Shown in pieces: positions 1,688-63,645 of a DNA stretch of 64,000 nucleotides (the first letter of the stretch is position 1; each line of letters starts with the position of its first letter). The position numbers were made by a program, and so were the translations under genes. The DNA comes from the human T2T-CHM13v2.0 reference genome, Homo sapiens. The notes under the pieces are model-generated. The model saw nothing but the letters and a program-made list of their open reading frames with translations, ran no database searches and was not told where the DNA came from. The DNA is taken from the NCBI RefSeq assembly GCF_009914755.1, contig NC_060927.1, one strand, 5' to 3'.

Positions 1688-2113
1688 GATACGGTTTGGA
1701 TATTCGTCCCCTCCAAATCTTATGTTGAAATGTGATCCCCAATGTTGGAGGTAGGGCCTAGTAGGAGGTGTTTGGGTCATGGGGTCAGATCCCTCTTGAA
1801 TGGCTTGGTGTCCTCCCAATGGTAATGAGTGAGTTCTTCCTCTGTTAGTTCACATGAGAGCTGGTTGTTTAAACGAACCTGGCATATCCTCCTCTCTCTC
1901 TTGCTCCCTGTCTCTCCATGTGACACATCTGCTCCTCCTTCTCCTTCACCTTCCACCATGAGTAAAAGCTTCCCACGGCTTCACAAGAAGCTGAGCAGAT
2001 GCTGGTGCCATGATTGTAAAGCCTGCAGAACCGTGAGCCCAATAAACCTCTTTTCTTTATAAATTACCCATCCTCAGGTATTCCTTTATAGCAATGCAAA
2101 ATGGACCAACATA
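1688..2113 (+). mobile_element. MST (MaLR) solo LTR
   Basis: tgatacggtttggat...ccaaatcttatgttgaaatgtgatcccc...aataaacctcttttctttataaattaccc...gcaatgcaaaatggaccaaca. Confidence 0.9.
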
Positions 2114-2269
2114 GTTTCTAAAGGGAAACTTTATTTACATCAATTTTCTCAACTTGCAATTCTTGTAGAAACTATTTGTGAGATATTGTACATTTTTAAA
2201 ATAATAAATCTCCATGTGTATTTTACACTTCCAATATGTCTTAATTTATATTTCAAATATAAAACTCTG

Positions 2270-2627
<358 letters not shown>

Positions 2628-2749
2628 TCAGACTAGCCATATCTGAAGTGTTGGAAAGCCACATGTGGCTAGCAGTTACCATGTTGGACAGGACAAGTCT
2701 ATAATACACAAGAAATTTATTCAGATTAATAATAATAAACTTCGAATGT

Positions 2750-3056
2750 CAATTCCCATAAGTAAATGGGCAAAGGATATGAACAGGCAATTTACAATAG
2801 CAGAAATACTACTAAGATATGAAGAAGTGCTCAAAACCATTACTAATGAGGAAAACCTCAAATTAAATGCATTTATGCCTGGAAAAAAAATCACAAAGTT
2901 GGATAATGATAAGAGTTGGTGAGGATGTGAGTATAAAGAAGCCTCATTTGCCAGTGGGAGGATAGACAGGTGCAGACATTATAAAGAGTGCTTTCATCAT
3001 GTTAAATGAATGACAGCAATTAATTCTGCTCCTAGGTATTTATCCTAAAGAAATTC
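2750..3056 (+). mobile_element. Ancient L1ME ORF2-end/3'UTR fragment
   Basis: aaatgggcaaaggatatgaacaggcaatttaca...gttggtgaggatgtg...ctcctaggtatttatcc. Confidence 0.7.
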
Positions 3057-3357
3057 TTTTATTTTTTATTTTTTTGAGACAGAGTCTCACTTTGTTGCCC
3101 GGGCTGGAGTGTAGTGGCACAACCTGTGCTCACTGAAATCTCTGCCTCCCAGGGTCAAGTGATTCTCCTGCCTCAGCCTCCCAAGTAGCTGGGATTACAG
3201 GTGCATGCCACCAAACCAGGCTAATTTTTGTATTTTTAGTAGAGACACGGTTTCATCATGTTGGCCAGGCTACTCTCGAACTCCTGACCTCAAGTGATCT
3301 GCCTGTCTTGGCCTCCCAAAGTGCTGGGATTATAGTAGTGAGCCACTGTGCCCAGCC
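3057..3357 (-). mobile_element. AluSx-like element
   Basis: Full antisense Alu; TSD tatcctaaagaaattctt at 3041-3058 and 3358-3375. Confidence 0.95.
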
Positions 3358-4839
3358 TATCCTAAAGAAATTCTTACACAGCTTAGACATTTACTTTTCT
3401 GTTGATTGTCCTACCCCGGACTACAAACTCTATGAAAGCAGGGATTTTGTCTTGGCCTTCTCTGTATCTCCAATGTTGGGATCAGGGCTGGCACATAGTA
3501 ATTGCTCAATAAATATTTATAGACTGAATGGAGTATGCCATCGTCATCATAGAAACCCAGTGAGGCAAGCATTTTCTAGATGAGGAAAATGGACCTTAGA
3601 ACAGCCATACCTCCAGCATCACATGTCCAGTTGCCAGCAGAGATGGAGTTAGCACAAAGGCCAACAGCCCAGACTGACTCCCAGCCATCACCTGTTCATT
3701 ATTTTAACATTACTTATTGAGCATCTCATAAAGAAAGACAGCCTATAAGTAACTGGAAAGAGCAACTACATCACCACATTTTCAGGGTTTAAATTAGAGC
3801 ATATCTAAACACAGAAAAGCTTTGCTTGATAAGGCTTCCCTCTAAATTCCTACATATTCCTACATATGTTCTCGGGTCATGCTTTTCCTGAGAGATATTC
3901 TTTTTTTTTTTTTTATTAAAAAAAAAAAAAAAGAAAGAAAGGAATGGAAAGCAAGAAGACTATTTAATAGATTGAAAGCTTTTGTTCTCCTACACACATT
4001 AAGCCGTTCGGTAACAAAACAGGCAGTCTCAGAAAAATAAATCACAGCTTTATTTTACAGCTTTAATCTTAAAAGGGTTAACATCTCCCCACCAGCTTGC
4101 AGGCTTTTTTGGTTTTTGCCTTTCCTTTTCTCTCCATAGCTTTGATGAGTTATCTTCAGAAGATCATGTGAGTACTTGCTTCATTTTCTCAGTTCTTTTT
4201 GGCCATCCATTCCTTGGCAGGTTTCACCCTATTTGGGTATAAGCACCCACTCTACATCTCCTCTCCACCCGCTATTTCGTGCATCAAGTGTTAACGAACT
4301 TTGTAGCAAAACAAATCCATCTGGAAATTGGCATTTCAACGATGTGTTTTTAAAACTGCTGTTCATCATTCCTAGCGTGTGTGCGCATGTGTGAAAAATT
4401 CAGAATACATTTAAGCAGGAAGCACTGGAAAGGCTGGGTGCACATTTTGAAGCCAGAATGCATTTCACAAGGTGGGAGGCACACATAGACTTGAGAGTGC
4501 TGAGGGTTGACTATCGCTTGTATCAGGCATGCTAAATATTTGACCATTTTGAATGAACTTTATTAGTCTGAACATGTTCCACATTCTCTATTTACTGAAA
4601 GATTATTTCCCAATTGCAAAAAGGATTACAGTTATACAAAGTCAAAAATACATATCCTTTTTTCTTCGTTAGTTAATTTATTTATACCCAGCCCTGCCTG
4701 TTGCAAAAAGGATTTGAGGTAGCTCATACACGATTTGATGGACTAGATTATTTGAGGGAGAACTCCTTTCCTATGCTGATTTTTACTTCCAAATAGAGAA
4801 TGCCAGTAAAATTAATAAGTAATGAATCAGAATCACTGA

Positions 4840-53317: not shown

Positions 53318-54267
53318 GAGTGGTTCTCAAAGTCTGCAGACCCCTGGTAGTCCATAAGATCAAAAAGATTTTCATAATACTAAGATATCTGCTTTTTCAC
53401 TGTGCTGACATGGGCACTAATGGTGCAACAGCAGAGGTAGGAAAAGCTATTTGTGCCACAGCATGAATCAAGGCTATGATACCAAGCTGTACTCAAAGTT
53501 GTTGTATTCTTCACTGTCATGTAATTCCAGGGTTTTTTTAAATGCCAGTTTGACTTAAGAATGTCTTTGCCAATTGCAGCTACCAAAGAAAAAGAAAAAT
53601 GAATGTCTTTGCTGAAGGACTATAAATGATTAGTTTTACTAAATCTTGACCCTTGAATACATATCTTCTTAACATTCTGTGTGACAATATGGGAAATACG
53701 TATAAAGTATGTATGTTGTGCAACAACATCCAATGGACGTCCCAGGGTGGGGAGCATTTGTGTGGAGGTTTGAGTTGCAAGATGAACTATGTGCTTTTCT
53801 CATGGAACAAAATAAAGTATGGTTATTTGGACTTGGGTGTTTGGCAGATATTTTGTTAAAACTTTTCTTTAAAGTGAACAAAATTAGCTCTTCAAAACAA
53901 CTGACAGTTTCTGTTGCCAGTGGTAGAATTCAAGTGTTCTAGTACTTGAATTTTTGAAAAATCATATTCACTACTGTGAGCTTAACAATTTCCAGTACTT
54001 AAAAACTCTTCTGATAAGATTGGGGTTAATGTTTATATATGTGATTTTTTTTATTATTCAATGAAATATGTCAACGTTAGGAAGACCTGCAAAAGTCAAA
54101 GATCTACGATTTCCCAAATACTCAATGCACAATGTTGCAAAATTATCTGTAAGTAAAAAAATCCATTCAAAGTGCAAGGCAGATCAATGGATTGTAATTT
54201 AACAGCATACTTAATTAATATGTTTCAGATGCCACAGTGATACAAACCCTTAAAAAACTGCCACTTG
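53318..54267. mobile_element. Charlie1-like hAT transposon, left part
   Basis: agtggttctcaaagt start; 'tttcataatactaaga', 'aaatccattcaaagtgcaag', ends aaactgccacttg. Confidence 0.8.
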
Positions 54268-56103
54268 GGGGTGGAGCCAAGATGGCCGAATAGGAACAGC
54301 TCCAGTCTACAGCTCCCAGCATGAGCAACTCAGAAGATGGGTGACTTCTGCATTTCCAACTGAGGTACCGGGTTCATCTCACTGGGGAGTGCCGGACAGT
54401 AGGTGGAGGACAGTGGGTGCAGCAAACCATGCATGAGCTGAAGCAGGGCGAGGCATCGCCTCACCCAGGAAGCCCAAGGGGTCAGGGAATTCCCTTTCCT
54501 AGTCAAAGAAAGGGGTGACAGACGGCACCTGGAAAATCGGGTCACTCCCACCCTAATACTGCATTTTTGCAACAGGCTTAACAAATGGCACACCAGGAGA
54601 TTATATCCTGTGCCTTGCTCAGAGAGTCCTACACCCACGGAGCCTCGCTCATTAATAGCACAGCAGTCTGAGATCTAACTGCAAGGTGGCAGCGAGGCTG
54701 GAGGAGGGGCGCCTGCCATAGCCGAGGCTTCAGTAGGTAAACAAAGCGGCCGGGAAGCTCAAACTTGGTGGAGCCCACCGCAGCTCAAGGAGGCCTGCCT
54801 GCCTCTGTAGTCTCCACCTCTGGGGGCAGGGCACAGACAAACAAAAGGCAGCAAAAACCTCTGCAGACTTAAATGTCCCTGTCTGACAGCTTTGAAGAGA
54901 GTAGTTGTTCTCCCAGCAGGCAGCTTGAGATCTGAGAACAGGCAGATTGCCTCCTCAAGTGGGTCCCTGACCCCTGAGTAGCCTAACTGGGAGGCACCCC
55001 CAAATAGGGGCTGACTGACACCTCACACGGCCGGGTACTCCTCTGAGACAAAACTTCCAGGGGAATGATCAGGCAGCAGCATTTGCGGTTCACCAATATC
55101 CGCTGTTCTGCAGCCACCGCTGCTGATACCCAGGCAAACAGGGTCTGGAGTGGACGTCCAGCAAACTCCAACAGACCTGCAGCTGAGGGTCCTGACTGTT
55201 AGAAGGAAAACTAACAAACAGAAAGGACACCCACACCAAAAACCCATCTGTACATCACCATCATCAAAGACCAAAGGTAGATAAAACCACAAAGATGGGG
55301 AAAAAACAGAGCAGAAAAATTGGAAACTCTAAAAATCAGAGTGCCTCTCCTCCTCCAAAGGAACGCAGCTCCTCACCAGCAACGGAACAAAGCTGAACGG
55401 AGAATGACTTTGACGAGTTGAGAGAAGAAGGCTTCAGATGATCAAACTACTCCGAGCTAAAGGAGGAAGTTTGAACCCATGGCAAAGAAGTTAAAAACCT
55501 TAAAAAAAATTAGACAAATGGCTAACTAGAATAACCAATGCAGAGAAGTCCTTAAAGGACTTGATGGAGCTGAAAACCATAGCACCAGAACTACGTGACG
55601 AATGCACAAGCCTTAGTAGCTGATGCGATCAACTGGAAGAAAGGGTATCAGCGATGGAAGACGAAATGAATGAAATGAAGTGAGAAGAGACGTTTAGAGA
55701 AAAAAGAATAAAAAGAAATGAACAAAGCCTCCAAGAAATGTGGGACTATGTGAAAAGACCAAATATACGTCTGATTGGTGTACCTGAAAGTGATGGGGAG
55801 AATGGAACCAGGTTGGAAAACACTCTGCAGGATATTATCCAGGAGAACTTCCCCAATCTAGCAAGGCAGGCCAACATTCAAATTCAGGAAATACAGAGAA
55901 CGCCACAAAGATACTCCTAGAGAAGGGCAACTCCAAAACACATAATTGTCAGATTCACCAAAGTTGAAATGAAGGAAAAAATGTTAAGGGCAGCCAGAGA
56001 GAAAGGTTGCATTACCCAAAAAGAGAAGCCCATCAGACTAACAGCTGATCTCTCGGCAGAAACTGTACAAGCCAGAAGAGAGTGGGGGCCAATATTCAAC
56101 ATT

Positions 56104-57608
56104 TTTTTTTTTAATTTTTTTAGTATTTATCGATCATTCTTGGGTGTTTCTCGGAGAGGGGGATTTGGCAGGGTCATAGGACAATAGTGGAGGGAAGGTC
56201 AGCAGATAAACATGTGAACAAAGGTCTCTGGTTTACCTAGGCAGAGGGCCCTGCCGCCTTCCGCAGTGTTTGTGTCCCTGGGTACTTGAGATTAGGGAGT
56301 GGTGATGACTCTTAAGGAGCACGCTGCCTTCAAGCATCTGTTTAACAAAGCACATCTTGCACCGCCTTTAATACATTTAACCCTTAGTGGACACAGCACA
56401 TGTTTCAGAGAGCACAGGGTTGGGGGTAAGGTTATAGATTAACAGCATCCCAAGGCAGAAGAATTTTTCTTGGTACAGAACAAAATGGAGTCTCCTACGT
56501 CTATTTCTTTCTACACAGACACAGTAACAATCTGATCTCTCTTTCTTTTCCCCACATTTCCCCCTTTTCTATTCGACAAAACCACCATCGTCATCATGGC
56601 CCGTTCTCAATGAGCTGTTGGGTACACCTCCCAGACAGGGTGGCAGCCGGGCAGAGGGGCTCCTCACTTCCCAGACGGGGCAGCCAGGCAGAGGCGCCCC
56701 CCACCACCCAGATGGGGCGGCTGGCTGGGCAGGGGCTGCCCCCCACCTCCTGCACTGGGCGGCTGCCAGGCAGAGGGGCTCCTCACTTCCCAGACGGGGC
56801 GGCTGCTGGGCGGAGGGGCTCCTCACTTCTCAGACGGGGCGGCTGGTCAGAGACGCTCCTCACCTCCCAGACGGGGTGGCGGCAGGGCAGAGACACTACT
56901 CAGTTCCCAGATGGGGTCACCGCCGGGCAGAGGCGCTCTTCACATCTCAGACAGTGCGGCGGGGCAGAGGCACTCCCCACATCCCAGACCATGGGCAGCC
57001 GGGCAGAGACGCTCCTCACTTCCTAGATGGGAGGTGAGCGCCTAGAGGCGCTCCTCATTTCCCAGACTGGGCGGCTGGGCAGAAGGGCTCCTCACATCCC
57101 AGAGGATGGGCGGCCAGGCAGAGACTCTCCTCACTTCCTAGACAGGGTGGCAGCCTGGCAGAGGCTGCAATCTCGGCACTTTGGGAGGCCAAGGCAGGCG
57201 GCTGGGAGGTGGAGGTTGTAGCGAGCCGAGATCATGCCACTGCACTTCAGCCTGGGCAACATTGAGCACTGAGTGAGCGAGATTCCATCTGCAATCCCGG
57301 CACCTCGGGAGGCCGAGGCTGGCAGATCACTTGCGGTCAGGAGCTGGAGACCAGCCCGGCCAACATGGCGAAACCCCATCTCCACCAAAAAATATGAAAA
57401 CCAGTCAGGCGTGGTGGCGCGCGCCTGCAATCCCAGGCACTCGGCAGGCTGAGGCAGGAGAATCAGGCAGGGAGGTTGCAGTGAGTCGAGATGTCGGCAG
57501 TACAGTCCAGCCTCGGCTCCGCATCAGAGGGAGACCGTGCAAAGAGGGAGGGGGAAAAGGAGGGGGAGGGGGAGGGGGAGAGCGAGAGGGAGAGGGAGAG
57601 GGAGAGGG
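56104..57608 (-). mobile_element. Full-length SVA, old subfamily (SVA_A/B-like)
   Basis: On + strand: poly-T, SINE-R (~56125-56620), GC-rich VNTR (~56625-57160), Alu-like domain (~57160-57540), (GGGAGA)n hexamer (57545-57608). Confidence 0.95.
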
Positions 57609-58263
57609 CGTCATTCTTTCATGCCTTCTCCAGAGAGTGGCCCCAGGACTTTGCAGCCAGAGGGCTCTTTCTAAAATGCAAATCTCCAGCAGTGAGCCAC
57701 TGCGCTGGAGTAATTCCAGACCTTTGTAATCCCAGCCCTTTGGGAGGCCGAGGCAAGAGGATCACTTGAGGCCAGGAGTTTCAGACCAGCCTGGCCAACA
57801 CGGTGAAACCTCGTCTCTGCTACAAATACAAAAATTAGCCGGGCGTACTGGAGCACATCCATAAGTCCAGCTACTCAGGAGGCTAGGCAGGAGAATCGCT
57901 TGAACCCAGGAGGTGGAGGTTGCAATGAGCAAGACTGCACCACCGCACTTCAGCCTGGGTGACAGAATGAGACTCCATCTCAAAAATAAAAAATAAAGTA
58001 AAAATGCAAATTTCACCAACATCCTAAAGTGGGCTTTCAGTGACTCCTTAAGGTCTCGGGTCCGAGGCCCTTCCCAAGCCTGGACCTCCCAGTCCCCCGA
58101 GCCACCCCCAGCAGCCAGTGTGCCAGATCTGGTCCTATAGAACCAGAAGTGATTTCCTAAACGCATGGTGGCAGCTGGAACCACTGTCCCCCTTCTGCCT
58201 TGACAAGACTCTACATGTCTACACCTTTGTTTCACTTCCTCCCAGAAGCCTTCCTGCAACGTA
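57609..58263 (-). other. SVA 5' transduction (~650 bp: L2-like remnant plus Alu at 57684-58000)
   Basis: Non-L1, non-SVA sequence between the hexamer and the L1 resumption point; enclosed by the aacatt(c/t)tt duplication. Confidence 0.85.
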
Positions 58264-58539
58264 AACATTCTTAAAGAAAAGAATTTTCAACCCAGAATTT
58301 CATATCCAGCCAAACTAAGCTTCATAAGTGAAGGAGAAATAAAATCCTTTACAGACAAGCAAATGCTGAGAGATTTTGTCATCACCAGGCCTGCCCTAAA
58401 AGGGCTCCTGAAGGAAGCACTAAACATGGAAAGGAGCAACCGGTACCAGCCACTGCAAAATCATGCCAAATTGCAAACACCATTGATGCTAGGAAGAAAC
58501 TGCATCAACTAACGAGCAAAATAACCAGCTAATATCATA

Positions 58540-62364
<3,825 letters not shown>

Positions 62365-62594
62365 ACAATGAGAACACATGGACACAGGAAGGGGAACATC
62401 ACACACCGGGGACTGTTGTGGGGTGGGGGGAGGGGGGAGGGATAGCATTAGGAGATATACCTAATGCTAAATGACGAGTTAATGGGTGCAGCACACCAAC
62501 ATGGCACATGTATACATATGTAACTAACCTGCACGTTGTGCACATGTACCGTAAAACTTAAAGTATAATAATAATAAAATAAAATAAAATAAAA

Positions 62595-63215
62595 GAGAAA
62601 AGCATGTTTGTTAAGATAAAACAAAAAAAAAGAAAGAAAGAAAAGAAAGAAAAGAAAAGAAAAGAAAGGAAAAGAAGAGAAAAGAACAGGGCTGGCAAGT
62701 TTTTGCTGCAAAGGGCTAGATAGTACATATTTCTGGTGTTGCAAGTCAAGAAGCAAAATTGAGGCTACTATGTAGGTATTTATAAAACTAGAGAAAAAAT
62801 AAAGATCCACAACATTTTTACTGGTAAAATTCAAAATACAGTAATAATTGGAACTCAGAGAGAGAGTAGAAGGGTGATTGCCAGGGGCTAGGAGTGGGGG
62901 AATGCTGAGATGTTGATCAAAGGGTACAAACTTTTGCTTATAAGATGAGTAATTTCTGGGATTCTAGAGTACAGGATGTACTCTAGTTAATAGTTAATAG
63001 TACTGTATTGTAAACCTGAAATTTGCTGAGAATAGATCTCTAGTGTCACCACCACACACACAAAAAAATAGTTACTATGTGAGGTGATGGACATGTTAAT
63101 TCGACTGTGGTAATCATTTCACAATGCATACCAAATCGTCATGTTGTATGTCTTCAATATATACAATTTTCATTTGTAAATTGTGCCTCAATAACGCCAG
63201 AAAAAAGTATTATTT
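62595..63215 (+). other. L1 3' transduction: ~22 bp unique, second A-rich tail, MER58C-like fragment (62687-62850), L1MA/MB 3' end (62851-63206)
   Basis: Lies between the L1 tail and the 3' TSD copy at 63216-63233. Confidence 0.85.
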
Positions 63216-63233
63216 TTAAAAAACTGCCACTTG

Positions 63234-63645
63234 TCCAGTTCTGATATAATATCAGAAAAGAATTTCCACAATTATCTGAAGAGGCCTTTATTTTCAACTA
63301 TGTATATCTGTGAGGCTAGATTTTCTTATATTTCCACAAAAACAATGTATCATAATAAATTGAATGTAGAAGCAGATAGCAGAATTCAGTTGTCTTTTAT
63401 CAAGCCTAGACATTAAAGAGATTTGCAAAAATATAAAGTAATACCACTCTTTTCATTATGTACTTGTTTTATAAAATATAATTATTTTCACAAAAGTATT
63501 ATTTATGTTAACATGCAACAGGTTTGTTGTTTTATTTTAAAATGTAATAATAAATATTTTTTACTTTTTCAATTTTACTTTTGAAATCAGCAAATACAGA
63601 TAGATATAACTCAATAAGCAAAAAATCTTTGGGGTCCTCAATTAC
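63234..63645. mobile_element. Charlie1-like hAT transposon, right part
   Basis: Continues the left part: 'ccacaattatctgaa', 'tgaatgtagaagcagata', 'cattaaagagatttgcaaaaat', 'tttggggtcctcaat'. Confidence 0.8.

What the first reader, a model, noticed from the sequence alone, without database searches (positions are those of the whole stretch)
56098..58272. Antisense SVA with ~650 bp 5' transduction inserted into L1 ORF1
L1 ORF1 breaks at ccaatattcaacatt and resumes at aacattcttaaagaaaag (58264), giving a ~9 bp TSD at a ttctt/aaag endonuclease-like site. The insert is not only SVA: 57609-58263 is foreign DNA upstream of the hexamer. On the minus strand the hexamer is directly preceded by aaagaatgacg, which looks like the source element's own 5' TSD. 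That points to contiguous transcription from an upstream promoter rather than splicing into the SVA. SVA 5' transduction is a known phenomenon; whether this group is described I cannot tell.
Basis: partly seen in the sequence, partly recalled or inferred. Interest (0 to 1): 0.75.

Follow-up and report, generated by a model that had tools for sequence, protein, structure and literature searches.

The report
Jumping gene records a vanished parent
An old SVA jumping element on human chromosome 3 carries 653 bases copied from chromosome 17, where no SVA sits today, most likely because its parent copy there was read from an upstream promoter and later lost; this is a known kind of event, not a new mechanism.

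Summary
A full-length SVA (VNTR pattern SVA_B/C-like) lies antisense in ORF1 of an old L1. It has a poly(A) tail, a 9-bp (possibly 11-bp) target-site duplication and a 653-bp leader (57609-58261) directly before the hexamer. The leader's only other full copy found is chr17:74,160,956-74,161,613, colinear and unspliced, 3.3% non-CpG divergent, the same age as the SVA. Best reading (0.70): read-through 5' transduction from a chr17 SVA allele that was later lost. The leader ends 10-11 nt after an endonuclease-like site (chance 2-9%) and starts 38-70 nt below a CCAAT/CRE-like/GC-box cluster (post hoc). Template switching (0.17) is not excluded; ape orthologues could not be searched. Source-less SVA transductions are described in print, so this is a new member of a known kind. 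In passing: a young L1 on chr4 carries 1,673 bp of this window at 99.8% identity, pointing to a second absent source element at 61903.

The parts
54252..54266 (+). 5' TSD of the host L1 (15 bp; exact second copy at 63218-63232)
54267..62600 (+). Host full-length old L1, interrupted in ORF1 by the SVA; ORF1 already has 20 stops in the frame read before the insert (3' end approximate)
   Evidence: ORF1 4.05-5.45% non-CpG from 6 relatives
56098..56106 (-). 3' copy of the SVA insertion's TSD (one base homogenised to A beside the poly(A))
56107..56121 (-). Poly(A) tail of the SVA (T-run on +)
56122..56624 (-). SINE-R domain (boundaries approximate)
56625..57165 (-). VNTR, 14 units of 37-42 bp; no unit of 47 bp or more
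57166..57542 (-). Alu-like domain of the SVA
57543..57608 (-). CCCTCT hexamer array, 11 copies
57609..57609 (-). G before the hexamer (donor has A): cap-derived G of the inferred source, or CpG decay at the donor
57610..57620 (-). Candidate 5' TSD of the inferred source SVA (10-11 bp, one mismatch to the chr17 empty site), starting at a TG/AAAGA endonuclease-like site
57609..58261 (-). 653-bp leader, colinear copy of G000:C17:74160956-74161613 (+)
57687..58000 (+). Alu inside the leader (antisense to the SVA), with its own 14-bp TSD (57673-57686 / 58001-58014); also present at the donor, so it predates the copying
58264..58272 (-). 5' copy of the SVA insertion's TSD; L1 ORF1 resumes here

Best explanation
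The insert is one L1-machinery insertion of an SVA joined to 653 bases copied from chromosome 17, and it most likely came from a read-through transcript of a parent SVA that once sat at that chromosome 17 site and has since been lost. Steps: (1, inferred) about 10-12 million years ago an SVA_B/C-like element inserted at chr17:74,161,602-612 and duplicated the 10-11 bases now seen just before the hexamer. (2, inferred) RNA polymerase II started about 650 bases upstream, below a CCAAT/CRE-like/GC-box cluster, and read without splicing through an older Alu into the SVA. (3, shown by the hallmarks: TSD, nick site, poly(A)) the RNA was reverse-transcribed into ORF1 of an already dead L1 on chr3, antisense. 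(4, inferred) the daughter persisted, while the parent allele never fixed or was sorted out of the human lineage, leaving an empty site. No function of the chr3 copy is claimed.
For: Single full donor, colinear over 653 bp with one 5-bp indel. Same age: leader vs donor 20 of 613 non-CpG sites (3.3%, 95% CI 2.0-5.0); SVA vs 28 relatives 2.1-5.1%, median 3.1%. Donor homology runs up to the hexamer, with no poly(A) at the junction, no AATAAA/ATTAAA in 900 bp from the leader start, and no GT near the leader end. An endonuclease-like site lies 10-11 nt before the junction; a matrix from 49 Alu TSDs (of 126 full-length Alus) gives an equal or better site at 8.5% of non-Alu positions (7-20 nt), 5.3% (9-16 nt), and 2.3-3.8% within 5 kb, against 22 of 28 real SVA junctions. 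G precedes the hexamer, as in 21 of 28 relatives; PMC2912911, PMC6139936 and PMC3287187 attribute such a G to the cap. Three of 10 textbook promoter motifs lie at -70 to -38 from the leader start; 6 of 1,846 non-Alu windows (3 loci, this one included) reach three. Precedent: 16% of transduction-bearing polymorphic SVAs had no source in the references, read as lost or rare alleles (PMC12593883, section 10); SVAs lost by lineage sorting are documented (PMC6139936, passages). Analogy in this window: a chr4 L1 carries 61903-63575, starting exactly at TT/AAAAAG, with no source L1 there.
Against: The parent SVA is not seen: no hexamer array and no VNTR/SINE-R hit in chr17:74.10-74.22 Mb, and no sibling. 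The endonuclease site is weaker than the median real junction (5.1 vs 6.2 bits); in the 4-6 bit band the ratio is only 5 of 28 vs 10.7% (about 1.7-fold). The G count is inflated because my boundary rule allows only A or G there; the G may also be CpG decay at the donor, and a template switch at the cap would give it too. The promoter motifs were chosen after seeing the sequence, the CRE pattern admitted a CpG-decayed form, and there are no transcript data. The insert does not begin with a cap-type G. The one mismatch in the candidate source TSD makes it share 7 bases with the chr3 target site, which this model must treat as coincidence.
Confidence: 0.7

Rival explanations
1. Template switch or RNA ligation: L1 reverse transcriptase copied an SVA RNA to its capped 5' end and then jumped to an unspliced chr17 RNA, so no SVA ever sat on chr17.
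For: No SVA and no SVA remnant at the donor; singleton. Same orientation, same age and the G at the junction fit equally well. Precedent: U6/L1 and other chimeras (PMC13174262, passages); a proposed CKS1B-SVA switch (PMC12593883, section 7 legend and passages).
Against: It needs a chr17 RNA ending, without poly(A) or a polyadenylation signal, 10-11 nt after an endonuclease-like site (chance 2-9%). There is at most a 2-base microhomology, after a mismatch. The published SVA case joined the foreign RNA at the 3' side.
Confidence: 0.17
2. DNA-level capture: during repair of the 5' junction of an ordinary SVA insertion, 653 bp of chr17 DNA were copied in as filler.
For: The chr3 TSD ends in four bases that also occur at the donor where the leader starts, and the internal junction shares 7 bases with the chr3 target. 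The leader is unspliced genomic sequence.
Against: The 5' junction is not a clean microhomology join (extra or mismatched bases at 58261-58263). The model does not explain the promoter-like cluster just upstream or the endonuclease-like site at the leader end.
Confidence: 0.07
3. Two independent insertions at one spot: a tailless chr17 retrocopy first, then an SVA at its end.
For: The bases before the hexamer resemble the bases after the poly(A) (both A-rich). The age intervals are too wide to separate events a few million years apart.
Against: The sequence before the hexamer matches chr17 (9 of 10), the sequence after the poly(A) matches the L1 empty site, and one TSD brackets both parts. The ages agree.
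Confidence: 0.04
4. Exon trapping: the leader is an exon spliced into the SVA.
For: An acceptor-like pyrimidine run ending in AG lies one base before the leader start at the donor.
Against: No GT within -15..+40 of the leader end at the donor. The join is at the very start of the hexamer, with the Alu-like domain intact, unlike SVA_F1 and pt_SVA_D6, where an exon replaces it (PMC6139936, passages).
Confidence: 0.02

Closest known systems
SVA 5' transduction by upstream transcription initiation (Damert et al. 2009, not readable here; summarised in PMC4859970, passages: about 10% of SVAs)
   Same: Full-length SVA, contiguous unspliced upstream DNA inside one TSD pair, poly(A) tail, endonuclease site.
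   Different: No source element at the donor and no group, only a singleton. The leader (653 bp) is longer than the mean of 172 bp for polymorphic 5' transductions (PMC12593883, section 7). The element is old (B/C-like).
Source-less SVA transductions (PMC12593883, section 10: 16% of 217 transduction-bearing insertions)
   Same: The origin can be mapped but holds no SVA; read as a lost or rare source allele.
   Different: Those are polymorphic SVA_D-F1 insertions; this one is about 3% diverged and predicted to predate the gorilla split, so the source could survive only in apes, if at all.
SVA_F1 (MAST2) and pt_SVA_D6 (STK40) exon-trapped subfamilies (PMC6139936, passages)
   Same: Host DNA at the 5' end of an SVA.
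   Different: They arose by splicing, lost the hexamer and much of the Alu-like domain, and expanded to 84-94 copies; here the SVA is whole, the join is unspliced, and there is one copy.
Template-switch chimeras (U6/L1; L1PA5-MAP3K13 chimera without a source L1, PMC13174262, passages)
   Same: Foreign sequence 5' of the retroelement, in one TSD pair, source element not found.
   Different: Those partners are small RNAs or spliced mRNAs; here the partner is unspliced intergenic DNA ending at an endonuclease-like site.

Membership tests
SVA retrotransposon (L1-mobilised) | [quoted passage not shown] | tested here: met
   (best relatives 93% over 1,436 bp)
SVA retrotransposon (L1-mobilised) | TSD of 4-20 bp at a TTTT/AA-like site (PMC3287187, passage) | tested here: met
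   9 bp with one mismatch (or 11 bp with two) at TTCTT/AAAG; empty site read from L1 relatives
SVA 5' transduction, read-through type | Non-SVA sequence inside the TSDs, 5' of the hexamer, mapping to a donor locus | tested here: met
SVA 5' transduction, read-through type | Contiguous with the donor, not spliced | tested here: met
   colinear with one 5-bp indel; no GT near the leader end
SVA 5' transduction, read-through type | Source SVA directly downstream of the donor | tested here: not met
   none in 120 kb of this one assembly; other haplotypes and apes not testable; two papers' supplements gave no row, one of them cut short
SVA 5' transduction, read-through type | Source element's 5' TSD retained before the hexamer | tested here: inconclusive
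   endonuclease-like site at 10-11 nt, chance 2-9%, weaker than the median real site
SVA 5' transduction, read-through type | Transcription start at the leader's 5' end | not testable with these tools
   no CAGE or RNA data; only a post hoc motif cluster
5'-transducing SVA group (two or more members) | Siblings sharing the leader | tested here: not met
   0 of 26 other exact 15-mer sites homologous or followed by a hexamer
SVA_B / SVA_C subfamily | Longer units (41-47 bp) present, a short unit before the terminal unit, no long-unit arrays of SVA_D-F (PMC4432496, passages) | tested here: met
   one 42-bp unit, a 37-bp unit before the terminal one, none of 47 bp or more; judged by lengths only, unit consensus figures not seen
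SVA_B / SVA_C subfamily | 5' ABCA array | tested here: inconclusive
   units run 40, 39, 37, 39; the fourth is aberrant
SVA_B / SVA_C subfamily | Diagnostic SINE-R positions; absence from orangutan | not testable with these tools
   no repeat library or ape genomes are held

The most novel reading that the evidence does not exclude
No SVA ever sat on chr17: the L1 reverse transcriptase jumped from the capped 5' end of an SVA RNA onto an unspliced, non-polyadenylated promoter transcript. This would be a route by which SVAs gain 5' sequence in trans, and would mean that some of the 'lost source elements' assumed in SVA catalogues never existed.
Probability: 0.17. Interest if true: 0.5.

Novelty: new member of a known kind. 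Interest (0 to 1): 0.3.

Why it matters
Modestly. The mechanism is known. If the best reading holds, the copy is a dated record of an extinct SVA allele and of a promoter that was active in the ancestral germline at a now intergenic chr17 site, and it predicts the exact base where an ape haplotype may still carry the parent. That makes the usual assumption behind source-less transductions testable at one locus. The by-product may be more useful: the window pinpoints a probable human L1 source element at chr3:61,441,903 that this assembly lacks.

Tried and rejected
Sibling search: the leader's unique 5' part gave 2 matches of 2 candidates; its 3' part 3 of 3, the third a 38-bp piece on chr12 with no SVA; the junction 20-mer occurred once; a 15-mer at the leader end occurred 28 times, and the 26 other sites share only 6-17 of 45 upstream bases and lack a hexamer; none of 29 related SVA loci carries the leader. 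These searches skip common words and score only the best candidates, so a very short or diverged sibling could be missed. Protein-coding role: a 140-aa ORF in the donor runs into the Alu and has no Pfam match; rejected. Bidirectional promoter of the neighbouring zinc-finger gene: its start codon is 9.4 kb away and there is no CpG island at the donor; not supported. Ordering host L1 and insert by divergence: 3.3% vs 4.05-5.45%, p=0.12, not significant; the order rests on nesting. Literature: 9 searches; the listings for SVA with CDC42EP4, CPSF4L or 17q25.1 showed no paper on this locus. Damert 2009, Hancks 2009 and Hancks & Kazazian 2010 are not held, and their tables may well list this element. 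Supplements: PMC12593883 (2 files) gave no coordinate match, with GRCh38 numbers estimated by me; PMC12350158's table is cut inside sheet 18, so the transduction tables 19-20 were not seen. Earlier scan findings were not available.
Full report
OBSERVATION. On the minus strand the insert reads: TSD (58272-58264), a leader (58261-57609), an 11-copy hexamer array (57608-57543), the Alu-like domain, a 14-unit VNTR (57165-56625), SINE-R, poly(A), and the second TSD copy (56106-56098). Of 6 fetched L1 relatives, 3 show the empty site exactly, 1 differs by a base and 2 were not picked up by my pattern. The TSD is 9 bp with one base turned to A beside the poly(A), or 11 bp with two differences. The nick site reads TTCTT/AAAG, in line with the TTTT/AA consensus (PMC3287187, passages seen).

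DONOR. The leader's unique 5' part has 2 matches among 2 candidates in the assembly: itself and chr17:74,160,957 (94%). Its 3' part has 3 of 3, the third a 38-bp piece without SVA. The whole leader is colinear with chr17:74,160,956-74,161,613, including an older Alu with its own TSD, with 32 substitutions in 653 columns and one 5-bp indel. The donor is on the + strand, 13.5 kb beyond the stop codon of a minus-strand Cdc42-effector gene (Pfam BORG_CEP and PBD) and 9.4 kb from the start codon of a minus-strand CCCH zinc-finger gene. The names CDC42EP4 and CPSF4L are recalled, not given by a call.

The donor continues with ordinary sequence and an Alu; 120 kb around it hold no hexamer array and no VNTR/SINE-R hit. 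There are no siblings: the junction 20-mer is unique, 0 of 26 other exact matches to a 15-mer at the leader end are homologous or followed by a hexamer, and 0 of 29 related SVA loci carry the leader. The genome searches are lower bounds for repeats.

AGE AND SUBFAMILY. Leader vs donor: 20 of 613 non-CpG sites (3.3%, CI 2.0-5.0). About three of these come from one micro-inversion, so the figure is slightly high. SVA vs 28 relatives (of 29 fetched; one partial match left out; 40 of 7,866 candidates were scored): 2.1-5.1%, median 3.1%. The two parts therefore have the same age within error. The VNTR has a 42-bp unit, a short unit before the terminal one, and no unit of 47 bp or more, which fits SVA_B or SVA_C by the text of PMC4432496 (passages seen, figures not). 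That paper gives 11.56 and 10.88 Myr for them and says SVA_B is absent from orangutan. The assignment is by unit lengths only.

THE INTERNAL JUNCTION. Donor homology runs to the hexamer: the insert has GAAAGAATGACG, the donor GAAAGAAGGACA. There is no GT within -15..+40 at the donor, no poly(A) at the join, and no polyadenylation signal in 900 bp from the leader start. A spliced exon and a finished mRNA are both unlikely. A matrix built from 49 Alu TSDs (of 126 full-length Alus) scores the site 10-11 nt before the join at 5.1 bits. Random positions do as well 9.3% of the time (all), 8.5% (non-Alu), 5.3% (non-Alu, 9-16 nt) and 2.3-3.8% within 5 kb; 22 of 28 real SVA junctions do. Against this, the score is below the real median (6.2), and in the 4-6 bit band the ratio is only 5 of 28 against 10.7%. 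The evidence is therefore between about 2-fold and 9-fold. The G before the hexamer matches 21 of 28 relatives (the other 7 have A; my boundary rule allows only these two) and the cap-derived G reported in PMC2912911, PMC6139936 and PMC3287187 (passages seen), but CpG decay at the donor or a switch at the cap would also give it. One oddity remains: the single mismatch in the candidate TSD makes it share 7 bases with the chr3 target site.

THE 5' END. Upstream of the leader start the donor has a CCAAT box at -70, a CRE-like octamer at -55 and a GC-box-like motif at -38. With a panel of 10 recalled promoter motifs, 6 of 1,846 non-Alu windows (3 loci, this one included) reach three; this trio occurs at 2 places in 120 kb, here and in a CpG island at 74.2019 Mb. 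The test is post hoc and no RNA data were available. A repeat ends about 85 bases upstream (one search shows it is multi-copy); it resembles a MaLR-type LTR from recall only, and could be an alternative promoter. The insert does not begin with a cap-type G, so it may be slightly truncated.

MECHANISM. Shown: one L1-type insertion; a contiguous leader from one donor; equal ages; no source in this assembly. Inferred: a parent SVA at chr17, an upstream start, and loss of the parent allele (0.70). Template switching (0.17), DNA capture at the 5' junction (0.07), two separate insertions (0.04) and exon trapping (0.02) are the rivals. Only ape or population haplotypes can decide, and none are held here.

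COMPARISON WITH WHAT IS KNOWN. About 10% of SVAs carry upstream-initiated 5' transductions (PMC4859970, passages). In 543 polymorphic SVAs, 217 carried transductions and sources were found for 84%; the rest were read as lost or rare alleles (PMC12593883, sections 7 and 10 read, other passages seen). Loss of SVAs by lineage sorting is described (PMC6139936, passages), as is a source-less L1 chimera (PMC13174262, passages). PMC10681720, PMC9132208, PMC3484675 and PMC12350158 were seen as passages only. The element works like a read-through 5' transduction and meets the structural tests; the test 'source present at donor' is not met in this assembly, and 'member of a group' is not met. Whether this locus is in print is open: 9 searches showed nothing on it, but the three primary papers could not be read and the one large table was cut short.

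BY-PRODUCT. The host L1 has an exact 15-bp TSD that closes at 63218-63232, so it carries about 600 bp of 3'-transduced DNA, 93% identical to chr4:25.87 Mb, where an Alu and no L1 precedes it in the 1.2 kb fetched. Separately, a 1.1-kb 5'-truncated L1 at chr4:110.657 Mb, with the ACA triplet in its 3' UTR (the Ta mark as given in PMC12350158; exact position not checked), is followed by its poly(A), then 1,673 bp identical to window 61903-63575 at all but 3 sites, then a second poly(A). The copied stretch starts exactly at TT/AAAAAG, where this assembly has no young L1. That points to a human source L1 at chr3:61,441,903 absent from this haplotype, and shows the same 'empty donor beginning at an endonuclease site' pattern, as an analogy and not as proof.

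VERDICT. Real, well-formed, and a new member of a known kind. Interest 0.3.

Noticed in passing
window 61903-63575; L082:3203-6016 (G000:C4:110656702-110659515): A young 5'-truncated L1 on chr4 (ACA triplet in the 3' UTR) carries this 1,673-bp stretch as a 3' transduction, 3 mismatches only, starting at a perfect TT/AAAAAG site and ending about 20 nt after AATAAA. No young L1 sits at 61903 in this assembly, so a polymorphic or lost human source L1 is predicted at chr3:61,441,903. Not found in the truncated supplement searched.
   Followed up: partly
window 62618-63217, TSDs 54252-54266 and 63218-63232; L083:1200-1789: The host L1 carries its own 3' transduction of about 600 bp, 93% identical to chr4:25.87 Mb; there an Alu, and no L1, precedes it in the 1.2 kb fetched: a third transduction without a visible source.
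   Followed up: partly
window 57690-57702: Micro-inversion in the leader's Alu: the three-base loop of a 5-bp hairpin is reversed relative to the donor, beside the only indel; it accounts for about three apparent substitutions.
   Followed up: no
window 56127-56132: The SVA's polyadenylation signal carries a substitution; 28 of the 30 SVA loci examined have the canonical hexamer.
   Followed up: no
L003: about 1930-3373 (G000:C17, upstream of the donor): A multi-copy repeat broken by several Alus ends about 85 bp before the leader start, on the same strand; it resembles a MaLR-type LTR from recall only and is a possible alternative promoter.
   Followed up: no
[quoted passage not shown]: Two related SVAs differ from the others at the start of the Alu-like domain (the match begins only at query base 28), suggesting a distinct old sub-lineage.
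   Followed up: no
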